Of a stretch of DNA of 64,000 nucleotides, positions 12,135-19,170 are shown one piece after another (positions within the stretch are counted from its first letter, which is position 1; every line of letters starts with the position of its first letter). The notes beneath the pieces were generated by a model, which made no database searches, was not told where the DNA came from, and was given only the letters and a program-made list of their open reading frames with translations. A program made the translations under genes and the position numbers. This stretch comes from Mobula hypostoma (lineage: Eukaryota). The stretch is from assembly GCF_963921235.1 (NCBI RefSeq), contig NC_086097.1:112222001-112286000 (forward strand), written 5' to 3'.

Positions 12135-13500
12135 GCTTTTAAAATACAAACAAAAGGCAACTAAAAGCTATAAGAAGGGAAAAGATGAAATATGAAGTCA
12201 AACTAGCCAATAATATAAAGCAGGATACTAGAAGTTTTTTCTGTTATATAAAGAGTAAAAAGAGGTGAGAATTGATATTGGACCACTGGAAAATGATGCT
12301 AGTGAGGTAGTAATGGGAGACAAAGAAATGGCAAATGAACTTAATGGGTACTTTGCACCAGTCTTCACTGTGGAAGACACTAGCAGTGTGCCAGAGGTCT
12401 GTGAGTGTCAGGGAGCAGGAGTGAGTGCCATTGCTATTACAAAGGAAAAAGTGGTAGGCGAGCAAACTCAAAGGTCTTAGGGTGGATGTCACCTGGACCA
12501 AATGGACTACATCTCATAGTCCTGAGAGAGGTTGCTGAAGAGATAATGGATGCATTGGTCATGATCTTTCAAGAATCACTTGATACTGGCATGGCCCCAG
12601 AGGACTGGAAAATTGCAAATGTCACTCCACTCTTTAAGAAGGGAGGAAGGCAAAAGAAATGAAATTGTAGGCCAGTTAGCCTAACCTCAGTGGCTGCGAA
12701 ACTGTTGGTGTCCATTATTAAGGATGAGGTTTCAGGATATAGACTATTGCCTGGATAAGGAGAAGGTTCAAACATCTGAGGAACAAAGGGACTTGGGAGT
12801 CCTTGTGCAGAGCTCCCAGAAGGTTGAATTGCAGGTTGGGTCGGTGGTGAGAAGGGCAGATGCAATGTTGGTGTTGACTTTAAGGGGAACAGAATATAAA
12901 AACAAGGAGATAAAGCTGAGATAAAGATACTAGTTAGGCTGCACTTGGAGTACTGTCAACAGTTTTGGGCACCATACCTCAGAAAGGATGTGTTGTCATT
13001 GGAGAGAGTCCAGAGGAGTTTCATGAGGATAATTCTGGGAATGAAGAGGTTAATGTATGAGTAGTGTTTGGCAGCTTTTGCCCTGTATTCACTGGAAGTT
13101 AGAAGAGCGCATGAGGATCCCACTGAAACTTACCGAATGTTGAAAGGACTAGATAGGGTAGATGTGGAGAGGATGTTTTCTCTGGTGGGAGGGTCCAGAA
13201 ATAGAGGGCACAGCCTCAAAATTGAGGAGCCACCTTTTAGAACAGAGGTAAGGAGGATCTTTTTTTAGCCAGAGTGTGATAAATCTGTGGAATGCTCTGC
13301 CACAGACTGTGGCAGAGGTCCAGTCTGCGGGTATATTTAAGATGGAAGTTGGTAGTTTTCTGATCAGTCAGGGCATCAAAGGACATGGCGAGAAGGCAGG
13401 TGTATGAGGTTGAGTGGGATAATAAATCAGCCATGATGGAATGGTGGAGCAGACCCAATGGGCTGAATGGCCCAATTCTATTCCTATGTCTTATGGTCTT
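12135..13500 (+). mobile_element. Decayed CR1 LINE with internal deletion
   Basis: SPGPNGLHLIVLREVAEEI..DWKIANVTPLFKKG jumps near 12740 to post-RT sequence. CR1 3' UTR ends TTCCTATGTCTTATGGTCTT. Confidence 0.85.
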
Positions 13501-13504
13501 ATTC

Positions 13505-13908
13505 TGTCTAATCCCATCAACTCGCACCTGGATCATAGCCTTCATGCCCTTCCCATCGATGTCCAATGAAAGCTTCTCTTAAATGTTGCAATTGAACCGG
13601 CATCCATCATTTCTGCTGGCAGCTGGTTCCACACTCACACCTCCCTTTGAGTGAAGAAATTACCCCTCAGGTTTCCCTTAAGTATTTCACTTTTACCCTT
13701 AACCTATAGTTCTAGTCTTAGCCAACCTCAGTGGAAAAAGCCTGCTTGCATTTACCCTATCTAGATCCTTCATGATTCTGTATTCCTCTATCAAATCTCC
13801 CCTCACCCTCCCATGCACCAGGAAATAAAGTCCGAACCTATTTAACCTTTCCATGTCCTTAAGTCCCAGCAACATCCTTGTAAATTTTCTCTGTACTCTT
13901 TCAATCTT
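13505..13908 (-). mobile_element. CR1 LINE 3' fragment
   Basis: IERVQRKFTRML..RVRGDLIEEYRIMKDLDRVNASRLFPL. Confidence 0.8.
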
Positions 13909-13950
13909 AGGGGCGTGGGATCCAGGGAAACTTGGCTCTCTGAATAGATA

Positions 13951-13959
13951 ACACACACA

Positions 13960-13995
<36 letters not shown>
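13951..13995. repeat. (AC)n microsatellite
   Basis: Directly visible. Confidence 0.95.
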
Positions 13996-14000
<5 letters not shown>

Positions 14001-14159
14001 TTGGAGGTACTCAGCAGGTCAGGCTATGGAGGGGAATAAACAGTTGGCACTGAGATCCTTCATAGAAACATAGAAACATAGAAAATAGGTGCAGGAGTAG
14101 GCCATTCGGCCCTTCGAGCCTGCACCGCCATTTATTATGATCATGGCTGATCATCCAAC

Positions 14160-17100
14160 TCAGAACCCTGTACCAGCCTTCCCTCCATACCCTCTGATCC
14201 CCCGAGCCACAAGGGCCATATCTAACTCCCTCTTAAATATAGCCAATGAACTGGCCTCAACTGTTTCCTGTGGCAGAGAATTCCACAGATTCACCACTCT
14301 CTGTGTGAAGAAGTTTTTCCTAATCTCAGTCCTAAAAGGCTTCGCCTTTATCCTCAAACTGTGACCCCTTGTTCTGGACTTCCCCAACATCGGGAACAAT
14401 CTTTCTGCATCTAGCCTGTCCAATCCCTTTAGGATTTTATACATTTCAATCAGATCCCCCCTCAATCTTCTAAATTCCAACGAGTACAAGCCTAGTTCAT
14501 CCAGTCTTTCTTCATATGAAAGTCCTGCCATCCTAGGAATCAATCTGGTGAACCTTCTTTGTACTCCCTCTATGGCAAGGATGTCTTTCCTCAGATTAGG
14601 GGACCAAAACTGCACACAATACTCCAGGTGTGGTCTCACCAAGGCCTTGTACAATTGCAGTAGTACCTCCCTGCTCCTGTACTCGAATCCTCTCGCTATA
14701 AATGCCAGCATACCATTCGCCTTTTTCACCGCCTGCTGTACCTGCATGCCCACTTTCAATGACTGGTGTATAATGACACCCAGGTCTCGTTGCACCTCCC
14801 CTTTTCCTAATCGGCCACCATTCAGATAATAATCTGTTTTCCTATTTTTGCCACCAAAGTGGATAACTTCACATTTATCCACATTAAATTGCATTTGCCA
14901 TGAATTTGCCCACTCACCCAACCTATCCAAGTCACCCTGCATCCTCTTAGCATCCTCCTCACTGCTAACACTGCCGCCCAGCTTCGTGTCATCTGCAAAC
15001 TTGGAGATGCTGCATTTAATTCCCTCATCCAAGTCATTAAATATATTGTTTGTAAACAACTGGGGTCCCAGCACTGAGCCTTGCGGTACCCCACTAGTCA
15101 TTGCCTGCCATTCTGAAAAGGTCCCGTTTATTCCCACTCTTTGCTTGCTGTCTGCTAACCAATTCTCTATCCACATCAATACCTTACCCCCAATACCGTG
15201 TGCTTTAAGTTTGCACACTAATCTCCTGTGTGGGACCTTGTCAAAAGCCTTTTGAAAATCCAAATATACCACATCCACTGGTTCTCCCCTATCCACTCTA
15301 CTAGTTACATCCTCAAAAAATTCTATGAGATTCGTCAGACATGATTTTCCTTTCACAAATCCATGCTGACTTTGTCCGAAGATTTCACCGCTTTCCAAAT
15401 GTGCTGTTATCACATCTTTGATAACTGACTCTAGCAGTTTCCCCACCACCGACGTTAGGCTAACCGTTCTATAATTCCCCGGTTTCTCTCTCCCTCCCTT
15501 TTTAAAAAGTGGGGTTACATTAGCCACCCTCCAATCCTCAGGAACTAGTCCAGAATCTAACGAGTTTTGAAAAATGATCACTAATGCATCCACTATTTCT
15601 TGGGCTACTTCCTTAAGCACTCTGGGATGCAGACCATCTGGCCCTGGGGATTTATCTGCCTTTAATCCCTTCAATTTACCTAACACCACTTCCCTACTAA
15701 CATGTATTTCGCTCAGTTCCTCCATCTCACTGGACTCTCTGTCCCCTACTATTTCTGGAAGATTATTTATGTCCTCCTTAGTGAAGACAGAACCAAAGTA
15801 ATTATTCAATTGGTCTGCCATGTCCTTGCTCCTCATAATCAATTCACCTGTTTCTGTCTGTAGGGGACCTACATTTGTCTTTACCAGTCTTTTCCTTTTT
15901 ACATATCTATAAAAGCTTTTACAGTCAGTTTTTATGTTCCCTGCCAGTTTTCTCTCATAATCTTTTTTCCCCTTCCTAATTAAGCCCTTTGTCCTCCTCT
16001 GCTGAACTCTGAATTTCTCCCAGTCCTCAGGTGAGCCACTTTTTCTGGATAATTTGTATGCTTTTTCTTTGGAATTAATACTATCCTTAATTTCTCTTGT
16101 CAGCCACGGGTGCACTACCTTCCTTGATTTATTCTTTTGCCAAACTGGGATGAACAATTGTTGTAGTTCATCCATGCAATCTTTAAATGCTTGCCATTGC
16201 ATATCCACCGTCAATCCTTTGAGTGTCATTTGCCAGTCTATCTTAGCTAATTCACGTCTCAGACCTTCAAAGTTACCCCTCTTTAAGTTCAGAACCTTTG
16301 TTTCTGAATTAACTATGTCACTCTCCATCTTAATGAAGAATTCCACCATATTATGGTCACTCTTACCCAAGGGGCCTCTCACGACAAGATTGCTAATTAA
16401 CCCTTCCTCATTGCTCAAAACCCAGTCTAGAATAACCTGCTCTCTAGTTGGTTCCTCGACATGTTGGTTCAAAAAACCATCCCTCATACATTCCAAGAAA
16501 TCCTCTTCCTCAGCACCTTTACCAATTTGGTTCACCCAATCTACATGTAGATTGAAGTCACCCATTATAACTGCTGTTCCTTTATTGCACACATTTCTAA
16601 TTTCCTGTTTAATACCATCCCCGACCTCACTACTACTGTTAGGTGGCCTGTACACAACTCCCACCAGCGTTTTCTGCCCCTTAGTGTTATGCAGCTCTAC
16701 CCATATCGATTCCACATCTTCCTGGCTTATGTCCTTCCTTTCTATTGCGTTACTCTCGTCTTTAACCATCAACGCCACCCCACCTCCTTTTCTTTCATGT
16801 CTATCCCTCCTGAATATTCCTTTGATCCCTGGACATTGAGCTCCCATCCTTGGTCACCCTGGAGCCATGTCTCTGTGATCCCAACTATATCATAATCATT
16901 AATAACAATCTGCACTTTCAATTCATCCACCTTGTTACGAATGCTCCTGGCATTGACACACAAAGCCTTCAGGCGCTCTTTTACAACTCTCTTAGCCCTT
17001 ATACAATTATGTTGAAAAGTGGCCTTTTTTGATGCTTGCCCTGGATTTGTCCACCTGCCACTTTTACTTTTCTCCTTACTACTTTTTGCTTCTACCCTCA

Positions 17101-17212
17101 CTTTACACCCCTTTGTCTCTCTGAACTGGTTCCCATCCCCCTGTTGTGAACTAACCTCCTCTCGCCTAGCCTCTTTAATTTGATTCCCACCCCCCAACCA
17201 TTCTAGTTTAAA
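14160..17212 (-). pseudogene. CR1 ORF2: APE endonuclease plus reverse transcriptase, one frameshift near 16818-16825
   Basis: CVNARSIRNK and GITETWL lie in ORF 16769..17197. VYRPP, MGDFN, SDH, YLDFQKAFDKV, GVPQGSVLGP and KFADDTKL lie in the 895-aa ORF 14160..16847. Confidence 0.93.
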
Positions 17213-18139
17213 GTCACCTCAATAGCCCTCGCTAATCTCCCTGCCAGGATATTGGTCCCCCTAGGATTCAAGTGTAACCCGTCCTTTTCGTACAGGTCAC
17301 GCCTGTGCCAAAAGAGGTCCCAATGATCCAAAAACTTGAATCCCTGCCTCCTGCTCCAATCCCTCAGCCACGTATTTATCCTCCAGCTCATCGCATTCCT
17401 ACTCTCACTGTCGTGTGGCACAGGCAGTAATCCCGAGATTACTACCTTTGCGGTCCTTTTTCTCAACTCCCTTCCTAGCTCCCTATATTCTCCTTTCAGG
17501 ACCTCTTCCCTTTTCCTACCTATGTCATTGGTACCTATATGTACCACGACCTCTGGCTCCTCACCCTCCCACTTCAGGATATCTTGGACACGATCAGAGA
17601 TATCCCGGACCCTGGCACCAGGGAGGCAAACTACCACCCGGGTCTCTGGACTGCGTCCACATAATCGCCTATCTGACCCCCTTACTATCGAGTCCCCTAT
17701 CACAACTGCCCTCCTCTTCCTTTCCCTACCTTTCTGAGCTACAGGGCCGGACTCTGTGCCGGAGGCACGGCCACTGTCACTTCCCCCGGGTAAGCTGTCC
17801 CCCCCAACAGTACTCAAACAGGAGTACCTATTGTTAAGGGGCACAGCCACTGGGGTACTCTCTATTACCTGACTCTTCCCCTTCCCCCCTCCTAACCGTG
17901 ATTCACTGGTCTGCCTCCCATGGCCCCGGTGTGACCACCTGCCTATAACTCCTCTCTATCAACTCCTCACTCTCCCTGACCAGACGAAGGTCATCGAGCT
18001 GCAGCTCCAGTTCCGTAACGCGGTCCCTTAGGAGCTGCATCTCGATGCACTTGGCGCGGATGTGGACATCCGGGAGGCTTGGAGACTCCAGGGCCTCCCA
18101 CATCCGACACCGAGAACAACAAACTGCCCTCACACTCAT
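17203..18139 (-). pseudogene. CR1 ORF1: Cys-rich/coiled-coil N-terminus plus SGNH (GDSL-type) esterase
   Basis: ATG at 18139 (MSVRAVCCSRC..LELQLDDL). TGA at 17903-17905 and a +1 G in the run near 17884-17889. Then VIGDSIVRG, PGA, HIGTND and DGLHLN blocks. Confidence 0.9.
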
Positions 18140-18939
18140 ACTGCCCCTCTCCTCAAATAACAACAGAAAATGAATGCCAAACCTTCCTCGCCTCGCCCGT
18201 TTCCGCCTAAGCCCGGTGAGCCGAAGCCCTTAAGCCTTCACTCTGCTCCCGGCTCACTCCGCAGCCCGCTGTCTGAGGCTCTGTTCCTTTTAAATCTTCC
18301 GCGCTGCACTGCCCAATGTCACACGCCTGCGCAGTCCCGCCTCTCTGAACGCCGATGGAGAAAAAAACAACGAACATTTCAAAAATGTCTTCCTCCGCAC
18401 TCCCGCTCCGACTCTCAGACTTCACTAGGTCTCCAAAGAGAAAATAAAAATTTCTTCAGGGTAGCCATACCTCAATGAGACTTTGCAGTGGAGCAACGAA
18501 TCACAGACATAGGAGACTCTGCAGATGTTGGAAACCTAGAGCAACATGCAAAATGTTGGAGGGACTCAGCGGGGTTTTGGCCCAAAACATGGACTGTTTA
18601 TTCATCTCTATAGATGCTGCCCAGTCTGCTGTGTTCCTCCAGCATTTTATGCCTGGATGACTGACTCCAGTAGAATCCCCCAGACTGAGCCACACAGAGT
18701 TCTGTTGCCTAGTGATATTATGTTACTCATCAACAACCCCAATGATAGGTGTGTCACAGCAAATCATTCATTTGCTTCTGAGTTAGAAAGTTGTCAGTTC
18801 AAATCTCAGTCTATAAGGATGAGGCTAACATCCTCCATGCATTCTTAAGAAGGACAACGGGACACATCGGGTAGTAGTGGCCCGAAATATCATTTTCTTC
18901 CATTGATGCTGCCGACACATTCAGTTGTTCCAGCTAGTC

Positions 18940-19170
18940 TCTATTTTACTCAGAGAGTGGTAGCTGTGTGGAACAAGCTACCAGCAGAAGTGGTTGAGGC
19001 AGGTTCGATGTTGTTATTTAAAGTTAAATTGGACAGCTATATGGACAGGAAAGGAATGGAGGGTTGTGGGCTGAGTGCAGGTGGGTGGGACTAGGTGAGA
19101 GTGAGCGTTCGGCACGGACTAGAAGGGCCGAGATGGCCTGTTTCCGTGCTGTAATTGTTATATGGTTATA
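18940..19170 (+). mobile_element. CR1 LINE 3' fragment
   Basis: FTQRVVAVWNKLPAEVVEAG..FKVKLDSYMD followed by a CR1 3' UTR. Confidence 0.8.

What the first reader, a model, noticed from the sequence alone, without database searches (positions are those of the whole stretch)
17120..17221. Candidate -1 ribosomal frameshift (U_UUA_AAC) fusing the CR1 esterase ORF1 to an AUG-less ORF2
Seen: on minus, ORF1 ends ACU UUA AAC UAG, with the heptamer at 17212-17206 directly before the stop. The -1 frame reads UUU AAA CUA GAA UGG UUG GGG.. and stays open into the endonuclease motifs CVNARSIRNK and GITETWL. That frame is closed by a UGA just upstream (17221-17219) and has no AUG before the endonuclease domain. 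Five nt after the heptamer lies a G-rich segment, UGGUUGGGGGGUGGGAAUCA, which could form a short stem or G-quadruplex. Established: X_XXY_YYZ heptamers, including UUUAAAC in coronaviruses, drive -1 frameshifting, whereas LINE ORF2 translation is usually explained by termination-reinitiation. Inference: this CR1 may express a gag-pol-like ORF1-ORF2 fusion (Cys-rich/coiled coil, SGNH esterase, APE, RT).
Basis: partly seen in the sequence, partly recalled or inferred. Interest (0 to 1): 0.85.

Follow-up and report, generated by a model that had tools for sequence, protein, structure and literature searches.

The report
Conserved frameshift signal in CR1 retrotransposons
A jumping gene of the CR1 type ends its first gene with the same "slippery" seven letters that coronaviruses use to shift the ribosome back one base, and this signal is kept letter for letter in distant CR1 relatives, so it probably controls how the second gene is made.

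Summary
On the minus strand, ORF1 of a 4.4 kb CR1 LINE (14061-18423) ends ACU UUA AAC UAG. The heptamer U_UUA_AAC (17212-17206) is in the canonical phase. ORF2 lies in the -1 frame, closed by UGA two codons upstream, with no AUG before the endonuclease.

It is not chance. The 9-mer TTTAAACTA is invariant in 11 representatives of CR1 lineages: five from this genome and six bird/reptile-type metagenome loci with 30-38% ORF1 identity. Six different codons precede it, all ending in T. Across all copies fetched, 95 of 107 keep TTTAAACTAR.

ORF1 proteins named from sharks, rays, chimaera, coelacanth, frog, snake and bird end in -LN. The residue before LN varies but almost never lacks an NNU codon.

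ORF2 is in the -1 frame in all lineages tested. Its hypervariable linker (39-95 codons) stays open. An AUG near the stop is sporadic and absent from the window's family.

No stable downstream RNA structure exists; instead an invariant G5 run lies 9-10 nt downstream.

Best reading (about 0.6): programmed -1 frameshifting gives an ORF1-ORF2 fusion. Main rival (about 0.3): stop-coupled, AUG-independent restart. I found no paper describing this for CR1; older papers were not readable.

The parts
14061..18423 (-). CR1-type LINE copy (family A), about 4.36 kb; dead copy with one frameshift in each ORF
   Evidence: The 5' limit is the furthest 5' reach of 29 other copies. The 3' limit is the octamer repeat.
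17203..18139 (-). ORF1 (311 codons in intact copies): Cys-rich motif and coiled-coil-like part, then the esterase; start ATG at 18139-18137; broken by a frameshift between 17903 and 17955 in this copy
   Evidence: The best database hit P0001 is 311 aa.
17257..17703 (-). SGNH/GDSL esterase domain of ORF1
   Evidence: PF13472, E 6.6e-17, residues 85-233 of the 250-aa frame
17219..17221 (-). TGA closing the ORF2 (-1) frame two codons before the heptamer; it sets the upstream limit of any entry into the ORF2 frame
   Evidence: Other lineages have a -1 frame stop 1-6 codons upstream, or none nearby.
17206..17212 (-). Slippery heptamer U_UUA_AAC in canonical phase (last base of ACU, then UUA, then AAC)
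   Evidence: Invariant in 11 lineage representatives. TTTAAACTAR is kept in 95 of 107 copies.
17203..17205 (-). ORF1 stop codon (TAG) directly after the heptamer; TAG or TAA in every lineage
17199..17201 (-). ATG one base after the stop, in the +1 frame (opens an 8-codon ORF only); not in the ORF2 frame and absent from lineage B
17184..17195 (-). Conserved G-run motif GGGGGGUGGGAA, 10 nt after the heptamer; the G5 core is invariant across lineages
   Evidence: No stable fold. A two-tier G-quadruplex is predicted in only 5 of 11 representatives.
16955..17202 (-). ORF2 linker: open in the -1 frame from the heptamer to the endonuclease motif NARS (codon 87), with no AUG; the first 59 nt are lineage-B-like and the rest is lineage-E-like
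16344..16954 (-). Apurinic-type endonuclease domain of ORF2 (frameshift in this copy at 16769-16853)
   Evidence: PF14529 and PF03372; frames
14838..15494 (-). Reverse transcriptase domain of ORF2; ORF2 stop at 14160-14162
   Evidence: PF00078, E 1.1e-31
14061..14084 (-). 3' terminal octamer repeat (TTTCTATG) x3

Best explanation
The ten bases U_UUA_AAC_UAR at the end of CR1 ORF1 are a programmed -1 ribosomal frameshift site. Most ribosomes read Leu-Asn and stop, giving ORF1p (Cys-rich motif, coiled coil, esterase). A minority slip back one base while tRNA-Leu and tRNA-Asn sit on UUA and AAC, re-pairing on UUU and AAA. They then read CUA and continue through a variable linker into the endonuclease and reverse transcriptase. 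The result is an ORF1-ORF2 fusion in a fixed low ratio, like retroviral Gag-Pol. Shown here: the anatomy, the phase, the lack of a usable AUG in this family, and deep conservation of the heptamer, the adjacent stop, the -1 relationship and the open linker. Inferred: that slippage occurs, its efficiency, and the existence of the fusion protein. The stimulator is open. No stem-loop is present. The conserved unstructured G5 run 9-10 nt downstream may act by binding a protein, or the adjacent stop codon may contribute.
For: (1) The heptamer is in phase and is the only one in the 342-codon ORF1 frame. (2) TTTAAACTA is invariant in 11 representatives: lineages A to E of this genome and six metagenome loci whose ORF1 is 30-38% identical to the window's and 52-66% identical to hummingbird proteins. 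The surrounding columns vary. (3) Synonymous sites are frozen. The codon before TTA is ACT, AGT, GGT, GCT, GAT or TCT, always ending in T. Elsewhere in ORF1, third-position T is 0.20-0.28, TTA is 0-6 of 13-33 Leu codons and AAC is 0-4 of 3-9 Asn codons. (4) There is a protein-level footprint. 61 of 120 ORF1 homologues end in LN, as do 58 of the 83 with a complete C-terminus. Of 150 representatives of 50%-identity clusters, 96 have a C-terminus near the catalytic motif and 49 of those end in LN (the two sets overlap). The residue before LN takes 11-12 forms but lacks an NNU codon in only 2 of 61 and 1 of 49. This compares with 36 of 61 and 14 of 49 one position earlier. (5) ORF2 is in the -1 frame in 4 of 4 testable metagenome loci and in all five lineages of this genome. 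(6) The linker (39-95 codons, not alignable between most lineages) has 0 stops in the ORF2 frame in 12 of 13 copies, against 3-11 stops in each other frame. In bird/reptile-type loci it evolves under dN/dS 0.24-0.41 in that frame, against 0.35-1.99 in the shifted frames. (7) An AUG is dispensable. Families A and B have none before the endonuclease. Family A is a chimera that lost lineage E's UAAUG, yet it is the young, abundant family. (8) The -1 frame is closed 1-3 codons upstream of the heptamer in A, C, D, L083, L085, L086 and L091. Entry must therefore happen at or after the heptamer.
Against: No stable or unusual RNA structure follows the site: z scores run from -0.73 to +1.60 for 16 sequences at two lengths. 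A two-tier G-quadruplex is predicted in only 5 of 11 representatives. No long-range partner of the G-run stands out (best -23.1 kcal/mol against -21.2 +/- 2.5 for shuffles). The G5 run lies 9-10 nt downstream, further than the usual 5-9 nt. The stop codon is always directly adjacent, which fits a termination-linked mechanism as well. An in-frame AUG one or two codons after the heptamer exists in lineage E and in L081, L082 and L088. The shark-type linker shows no purifying selection on its residues (dN/dS 1.3-4.9 for A against E, few sites). No transframe protein, ribosome profiling or reporter data exist. LINE ORF2 translation in L1 and SART1 is explained in print by restart after termination (passages in PMC3708506 and PMC5009743).
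Confidence: 0.6

Rival explanations
1. Termination-coupled, AUG-independent restart. Ribosomes finish ORF1 at UAR, are not fully recycled, re-position by one base (for example the P-site tRNA-Asn re-pairing from AAC to AAA, or restart on a nearby AUG or near-cognate codon), and then translate ORF2 as a separate protein.
For: The stop codon is directly adjacent to the heptamer in all 11 lineage representatives, and -LN is the exact C-terminus in 58 of 83 complete homologues. Lineage E has UAAUG, and L081, L082 and L088 have an in-frame AUG two codons after the heptamer. Near-cognate codons (UUG in A and B, AUU in C/F, GUG in L083 and L085) lie in frame close to the stop. Restart after termination is the published explanation for SART1 (UAAUG plus a downstream structure) and for human L1, where the AUG is dispensable (passages read in PMC3708506, PMC3894237 and PMC5009743). 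Re-positioning of post-termination ribosomes to codons cognate to the P-site tRNA is recalled from Skabkin et al. 2013, which I did not read here.
Against: Restart gives no reason to freeze the first U and the UUA of the heptamer at synonymous positions in six codon contexts. The AUG is missing in A, B, C/F and D, all of which multiplied. The conserved G-run lies downstream of the stop, on the entry side of a terminating ribosome. Known tethering motifs for restart lie upstream (recalled, not tested).
Confidence: 0.3
2. The conserved TTTAAACTAR and G-run serve another RNA- or DNA-level role (for example a binding site for an element or host protein used in packaging or regulation). ORF2 is started independently inside the linker by internal or non-AUG initiation.
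For: No frameshift-stimulating structure was found. Lineage C/F has in-frame AUGs 33 codons before the endonuclease motif. The G-run is conserved as bases (NNG GGG GNN GGG with varying residues) and not clearly as protein.
Against: It does not explain three things: the exact phase of the heptamer with ORF1; the constant -1 relationship; or why a hypervariable linker of 39-95 codons stays free of stops right up to the heptamer in 12 of 13 copies, while the other frames carry 3-11 stops. Families A and B have no AUG before the catalytic motif.
Confidence: 0.07
3. Chance: a heptamer that happens to sit at the end of ORF1 in one young family, inherited by its copies without function.
For: The 10-mer occurs at least once in 35 of 100 shuffles of the window. 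Copies 97-98% identical share it by descent alone.
Against: It is invariant across lineages with 30-60% ORF1 identity, from this genome and from unrelated metagenome samples, at saturated synonymous sites. There is also the -LN and NNU footprint in proteins named from sharks to birds.
Confidence: 0.02

Closest known systems
Coronavirus/arterivirus -1 frameshift signal (U_UUA_AAC or G_UUA_AAC plus pseudoknot)
   Same: Identical slippery heptamer in the same phase. The downstream ORF encodes the polymerase and has no start of its own.
   Different: No pseudoknot or stem-loop follows here. The zero-frame stop is directly adjacent. The conserved downstream element is an unstructured G5 run at 9-10 nt.
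Retroviral and LTR-retrotransposon Gag-Pol frameshifting (including domesticated PEG10, G_GGA_AAC)
   Same: The logic is the same: an abundant structural or RNA-binding first protein, and a rare fusion that carries the enzymes. The Atkins et al. 2016 review (PMC5009743, passages read) covers retrotransposon-derived cases.
   Different: CR1 is a non-LTR element without protease or capsid. ORF1p is an esterase with a coiled coil. A fusion has not been shown.
Luteovirus/dianthovirus frameshift sites where the heptamer is directly followed by the ORF1 stop (e.g. G_GGU_UUU_UAG)
   Same: The slippery heptamer abuts the zero-frame stop codon. (Recalled from memory, not checked in a paper here.)
   Different: Those sites use an adjacent bulged stem-loop with long-range pairing to the 3' end. 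No comparable partner was found here.
Protein-stimulated -1/-2 frameshifting (arterivirus PRRSV C-rich motif about 11 nt downstream; cardiovirus 2A-bound stem-loop 13-14 nt downstream)
   Same: A conserved linear motif at an unusually long spacing, with no RNA structure of its own. (Recalled; the listing shows PRRSV frameshift papers, but I did not read them.)
   Different: The motif here is G-rich, not C-rich, and no binding protein is known. This is an analogy only.
Termination-reinitiation of LINE ORF2: SART1 UAAUG with downstream structure; human L1 AUG-independent ORF2 translation
   Same: Bicistronic LINE RNA with ORF2 entry next to the ORF1 stop. Lineage E of this genome even has UAAUG. 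Passages were read in PMC3708506 and PMC3894237.
   Different: Those elements have no conserved slippery heptamer. In the window's family the nearby AUG is in the wrong frame, and lineage B has none.
Dictyostelium TRE5-A/TRE3-A non-LTR retrotransposons
   Same: [quoted passage not shown] A -1 shift in a non-LTR element is therefore not a new idea.
   Different: They belong to a different clade and host. I saw no heptamer or conservation data for them.

Membership tests
Canonical -1 programmed ribosomal frameshift signal | Slippery heptamer X_XXY_YYZ in phase with the upstream ORF | tested here: met
   U_UUA_AAC at 17212-17206 with UUA and AAC as zero-frame codons. It is the only in-phase heptamer in ORF1.
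Canonical -1 programmed ribosomal frameshift signal | Downstream ORF in the -1 frame, short overlap, no own start before essential domains | tested here: met
   TGA two codons upstream. The first in-frame Met lies at codon 100-216, after the NARS motif at codon 87, in 9 of 9 open copies. ORF2 is in the -1 frame in all lineages tested.
Canonical -1 programmed ribosomal frameshift signal | Heptamer conserved among relatives, including at synonymous positions | tested here: met
   TTTAAACTA is invariant in 11 lineage representatives. Six preceding codons all end in T. The -LN and NNU footprint supports this.
Canonical -1 programmed ribosomal frameshift signal | Stable stem-loop or pseudoknot 5-9 nt downstream | tested here: not met
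   Folds of 60 and 100 nt downstream have z from -0.73 to +1.60. A G-quadruplex is predicted in 5 of 11. There is no Rfam match and no long-range partner. Pseudoknots were not searched by a dedicated program.
Canonical -1 programmed ribosomal frameshift signal | Transframe protein made at a set ratio | not testable with these tools
   Needs a reporter assay, mass spectrometry or ribosome profiling.
Termination-reinitiation (stop-start overlap type) | Start codon of ORF2 overlapping or within a few bases of the ORF1 stop, in the ORF2 frame | tested here: not met
   In the window's family the ATG at 17201-17199 is in the +1 frame. Lineages B, C/F and D have none. It is met only in lineage E and in L081, L082 and L088.
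Termination-reinitiation (stop-start overlap type) | Upstream motif pairing with 18S rRNA, or a downstream structure needed for restart | not tested
   I did not compare with 18S rRNA. No downstream structure stands out.
CR1-clade LINE | ORF2 with apurinic-type endonuclease and reverse transcriptase | tested here: met
   PF14529, PF03372 and PF00078
CR1-clade LINE | ORF1 with Cys-rich motif, coiled coil and SGNH esterase | tested here: met
   PF13472, E 6.6e-17. The CxxC...CxxC motif and a heptad-like stretch are aligned in A1. The coiled coil was not tested by a program.
CR1-clade LINE | 3' end with a short octamer repeat and no poly(A); copies 5'-truncated | tested here: met
   (TTTCTATG)x3 at 14061-14084. 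25 of 29 other copies stop short of the full 5' end near 18421-18423.
CR1-clade LINE | Placement in the CR1 clade by reverse transcriptase phylogeny | not tested
   No tree was built. Assignment rests on domain order, the 3' repeat, and ORF1 relatives named from CR1-rich taxa.

The most novel reading that the evidence does not exclude
All canonical vertebrate CR1 LINEs, the main retrotransposons of sharks, reptiles and birds, make their endonuclease and reverse transcriptase only as an ORF1-ORF2 fusion. They would do so by -1 frameshifting at U_UUA_AAC directly before the stop. The stimulator would not be an RNA fold but a protein bound to the invariant G5 run 9-10 nt downstream (a host G-run binding protein, or ORF1p itself as feedback). 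The fusion would tie the enzyme physically to the ORF1p coat on its own RNA, giving a simple basis for cis-preference and for the ORF1:ORF2 ratio. Sister families ending in -QGN may use G_GGA_AAC in the same way.
Probability: 0.2. Interest if true: 0.88.

Novelty: new variant of a known kind. Interest (0 to 1): 0.74.

Why it matters
How LINEs translate ORF2 from a bicistronic RNA is a long-standing open question. A 2013 review of non-LTR protein biogenesis (PMC3894237) does not contain the word frameshift. A 2016 recoding review mentions only HeT-A, TART and L1 among non-LTR elements.

A signal conserved to the base, with a defined heptamer, stop and G-run, makes the question directly testable for CR1, the dominant LINE of many vertebrates.

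If the fusion is real, LINE biology gains a Gag-Pol-like strategy, and vertebrate genomes gain thousands of copies of a coronavirus-type slippery site in cellular RNA. If instead restart is used, the same ten bases define a new kind of restart signal.

It also matters for annotation. ORF2 of CR1 should not be searched for by its first AUG. In the window's family that AUG lies inside the endonuclease domain.

Tried and rejected
- Downstream RNA structure: minimum-free-energy folds of 60 and 100 nt after the heptamer were run for 16 copies of all lineages. None was more stable than dinucleotide shuffles. A hairpin CCAGGC..GCCTGG occurs only in some bird/reptile-type loci and starts about 27 nt downstream.
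- G-quadruplex: a two-tier form starting 6 nt after the heptamer is predicted in 5 of 11 representatives and not in B, D, L082, L085, L086 or L088. I rejected it as the general stimulator.
- Long-range pairing of the G-run within the 4.36 kb element: the best duplex is no better than for shuffled motifs.
- Rfam: only three chance-level matches (E 3-7.6), none to a frameshift element.
- Expression: no RNA holder listed. The 24 runs found are contigs whose RNA status is a guess.
- Laid contigs of 4 runs showed no insertions or deletions anywhere in 16950-17450. No listed base variant lies between 17177 and 17215, but 32 variant rows were not shown. This argues weakly against transcript slippage or editing and says nothing on translation.
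- More DNA from other hosts: scans of genome contigs and viral contigs gave no relative.
- The -QGN families could not be fetched.
- Fused forms: a search for longer proteins gave 13 hits. The esterase-endonuclease fusions among them (P0122, and P0025) read ..GFKL.., that is, single copies with an indel, not a fused lineage.
- dN/dS of the A against E linker is above 1 on about 18 differences. This gives no evidence that its residues are constrained.
- The idea that lineage B has a TGA in the linker was rejected. 15 of 22 copies have CGA there and 7 have TGA, which is CpG decay.
- The idea that the ATG after the stop starts ORF2 in family A would need one G fewer in the G6 run. 27 of 30 close copies have G6 (one has 5 Gs, one 7, one an interrupted run), and lineage B lacks the ATG.
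- Literature: six full-text searches found no paper linking CR1 to a frameshift or to UUUAAAC.
- Haas et al. 1997, Kajikawa et al. 1997, Kapitonov and Jurka 2003, Khazina and Weichenrieder 2009 and Kojima et al. 2005 are not held. They may bear on novelty.
- Earlier notes of this scan held nothing relevant.
Full report
**What is there**

Read on the minus strand, window 14061-18423 is one copy of a CR1-type LINE.
- Its 5' limit is the furthest reach of 29 other copies (18421-18423 in four of them; the rest are 5'-truncated).
- Its 3' end is the octamer repeat (TTTCTATG)x3 at 14061-14084.
- ORF1 starts at ATG 18139-18137 and ends at TAG 17205-17203. It holds a Cys-rich motif, a coiled-coil-like stretch and an SGNH/GDSL esterase (PF13472, E 6.6e-17).
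- ORF2 holds an apurinic-type endonuclease and a reverse transcriptase (PF14529, PF00078).
- This copy is dead: each ORF has one frameshift.

**The observation**

The sequence reads ...GAG GTG ACT TTA AAC TAG AAT GGT TGG GGG GTG GGA ATC....
- The heptamer T_TTA_AAC (17212-17206) has TTA and AAC as zero-frame codons, which is the phase that tandem slippage requires.
- The -1 frame is closed by TGA at 17221-17219. From TTT it runs open into the endonuclease.
- An ATG one base after the stop (17201-17199) is in the +1 frame and opens only eight codons.
- In three intact ORF1 copies the heptamer is the only in-phase X_XXY_YYZ in 342 codons, and it sits on the last two.
- The 10-mer alone is not improbable in 64 kb. 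The argument therefore rests on position and conservation.

**Copies in the same genome**

The genome (G000, 3.48 Gb) holds thousands of copies; the first look found 3883 candidates.
- The 29 best besides the window's own are 97-98% identical, and all keep TTTAAACTAG.
- A search with the esterase model gave 28 more copies of this family (A) and two of a sister lineage B, 83% identical.
- Twenty more B copies show AGT TTA AAC TAG and no ATG after the stop. Their linker is open when CpG decay is allowed for: CGA in 15 and TGA in 7 of 22 copies.
- Queries with ORF1 proteins of other elasmobranchs brought out three further lineages:
  - C/F: GGT TTA AAC TAA.
  - D, old and decayed: GCT TTA AAC TAA.
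  - E: GAT TTA AAC TAA TG, with an in-frame AUG overlapping the stop.
- In every lineage the endonuclease lies in the -1 frame.

**Relatives from elsewhere**

A scan of metagenome contigs with an ORF1 alignment gave 27 loci with 29-53% identity to the window's ORF1 over the matched parts. The seven loci that reach the ORF1 end match at 30-38%.
- The six whose ORF1 I compared (all seven but L081) are 52-66% identical to proteins named from a hummingbird, so they are bird/reptile-type CR1.
- All seven (L081, L082, L083, L085, L086, L088, L091) read (G/T)CT TTA AAC TAG.
- In the four that clearly hold both ORFs, the endonuclease is in the -1 frame.

**Strength of conservation**

Eleven lineage representatives were stacked on the heptamer.
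- TTTAAACTA gives nine invariant columns in a row, and a GGGGG run 9-10 nt downstream gives five more. The remaining columns are variable.
- Over all copies fetched, 95 of 107 keep TTTAAACTAR. The losses are scattered single changes in old copies.
- The codon before TTA is ACT, AGT, GGT, GCT, GAT or TCT. These encode five different residues, and all six codons end in T.
- Elsewhere in the same ORF1s, third-position T is 0.20-0.28. TTA is 0-6 of 13-33 Leu codons, and AAC is 0-4 of 3-9 Asn codons.
- Protein-level selection for Leu-Asn cannot explain this. The constraint is on the RNA.

**The protein footprint**

- Of 120 ORF1 homologues, 61 end in LN. Of the 83 with the catalytic Asp-Gly-x-His motif in the last 45 residues, 58 end in LN. 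In 53 of these the end lies exactly 26 residues after the Asp.
- The database names of these proteins include skate, stingray, sawfish, zebra shark, catshark, sawshark, elephant shark, coelacanth, Xenopus, hummingbird and a snake.
- Teleost relatives of L2 type end differently (..LRTI).
- A profile search of 1.84 billion cluster representatives gave 96 proteins with a C-terminus near the catalytic motif, and 49 of these end in LN. This set overlaps the first.
- The residue before LN takes 11-12 forms. It lacks an NNU codon (K, Q, E, M, W) in only 2 of 61 and 1 of 49. One position earlier the figures are 36 of 61 and 14 of 49.
- This is what a required U at heptamer position 1 predicts.

**ORF2 entry**

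- The linker between the heptamer and the endonuclease motif NARS is 39-95 codons long. It cannot be aligned between most lineages.
- Even so, it has no stop in the ORF2 frame in 12 of 13 copies, while the other two frames carry 3-11 stops each.
- In bird/reptile-type loci it evolves with dN/dS 0.24-0.41 in the ORF2 frame, starting five codons after the heptamer, against 0.35-1.99 in the shifted frames. In the shark-type pair A against E it shows no constraint on residues (dN/dS above 1 on few differences).
- In A, C, D, L083, L085, L086 and L091 the -1 frame is closed 1-3 codons before the heptamer. Entry must therefore occur at or just after it.
- In family A, 9 of 30 copies keep the -1 frame open for all ~553 codons held. 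In all nine the first in-frame Met (codon 100-216; codon 216 in six) lies after NARS at codon 87, so no AUG-started product could hold a whole endonuclease. Lineage B is the same.
- An AUG close to the stop exists only in lineage E and in L081, L082 and L088.

**A natural experiment**

- Family A is a chimera. Its ORF1 end and the first 59 nt after the stop resemble lineage B (80% and 81%).
- From nt 60 on it is 91% identical to lineage E, starting at E's nt 6, just past E's UAAUG.
- The join removed the AUG and kept the heptamer and the frame. Family A then became the young, abundant family; many ORF1 copies are intact and score identically.

**What stimulates the shift**

This is the weak point.
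- Folds of the 60 and 100 nt after the heptamer are no more stable than shuffles (z from -0.73 to +1.60).
- A two-tier G-quadruplex is predicted in 5 of 11 representatives.
- No long-range partner of the G-run stands out, and Rfam has nothing.
- The G5 run is held by bases, not residues. The -1 frame reads NNG GGG GNN GGG, with Leu/Gln/Arg/Lys before and Gly/Asp/Val/Glu after.
- A linear motif at about 10 nt recalls protein-dependent stimulators of arteriviruses and cardioviruses. This is recalled knowledge and an analogy only.
- LINEs need little ORF2p, so a low rate from the heptamer, perhaps helped by the adjacent stop, could be enough. This is inference.

**Mechanism and rivals**

- I put programmed -1 frameshifting with an ORF1-ORF2 fusion at about 0.6. 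It alone explains the frozen full heptamer in phase.
- Stop-coupled, AUG-independent restart or re-positioning, giving a separate ORF2p, gets about 0.3. It explains the invariant adjacency of the stop and fits what is published for SART1 and L1 (passages read). It does not explain the first four bases of the heptamer.
- A non-translational role with internal initiation (0.07) and chance (0.02) fit poorly.

**Comparison with what is known**

- The heptamer is the coronavirus one.
- The heptamer-plus-stop layout recalls luteoviruses (recalled).
- The logic is that of Gag-Pol.
- A -1 shift has been asserted for Dictyostelium TRE5-A and TRE3-A non-LTR elements (PMC5911963).
- As a member of the canonical class it fails one defining feature, the downstream structure. 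I therefore file it as a new variant that works like -1 frameshifting.
- For CR1 I found no description. Six full-text searches and passages in CR1 papers gave nothing. The papers were PMC13343379, PMC4316615, PMC11303007, PMC4120745 and PMC3905857.
- The founding CR1 papers of 1997-2003 are not held and may mention it.

**Limits**

- No expression or translation data could be obtained.
- The runs found are contigs of uncertain kind.
- The lineages share ancestry, so counts of lineages are not independent trials. The changing codon before the heptamer shows repeated retention of the U.

Noticed in passing
window 16955-17202 (minus); L013, L072, L124: Family A is a recombinant. ORF1 and the first 59 nt after the stop are lineage-B-like (80-81%). 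The rest of the linker and ORF2 are lineage-E-like (91%). The join lies inside the linker, just past E's UAAUG. As a result family A carries two G-run motifs (17195-17186 and about 17135-17123).
   Followed up: yes
proteins P0184-P0186, P0191, P0194, P0195, P0197, P0238, P0257, P0258: Ten of 96 more distant esterase ORF1 representatives end in -GN, nine of them in -QGN. This can be encoded as CAG GGA AAC, that is G_GGA_AAC, another classical slippery heptamer. Here the residue before it is one that can end in G, the mirror of the NNU rule in the -LN families. No DNA could be fetched to check.
   Followed up: partly
window 14061-14084 (minus): The element ends in three copies of the octamer TTTCTATG, the kind of 3' microsatellite described for CR1. 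Directly beyond lie a different CR1 3' fragment and a (TG)n run (13699-14010).
   Followed up: partly
window 12405-12662 (+), 13699-14010 (-), 18849-19094 (+): Further short reverse-transcriptase or C-terminal fragments of CR1-like elements flank the full-length copy. This is an ordinary nest of 5'-truncated LINE copies.
   Followed up: no
proteins P0015, P0020, P0062, P0063, P0122: Public gene models that are really CR1 ORF1 or chimeras with it carry these names: 'SGNH/GDSL hydrolase family protein [Pseudomonas aeruginosa]' on a 4.2 kb contig (likely contamination), '40S ribosomal protein S24 isoform X2', 'transmembrane protein 204 isoform X3/X5' and 'hydroxyacid oxidase 2 isoform X1'.
   Followed up: no
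L025-type gene models P0025 and P0122: Two stingray gene models read ..GFKL(N/D).QGAGIQ.. across the junction. They are copies in which a one-base loss before the heptamer fuses ORF1 to ORF2, and they show TTT AAA CT in yet another ray lineage.
   Followed up: partly
L082, L086, L091 about 27-52 nt after the heptamer: Bird/reptile-type loci share a hairpin CCAGGC..GCCTGG (-12 to -13 kcal/mol) with some changes on both arms. It lies too far downstream for a usual frameshift stimulator and is absent from the shark-type lineages. Covariation was not tested formally.
   Followed up: partly
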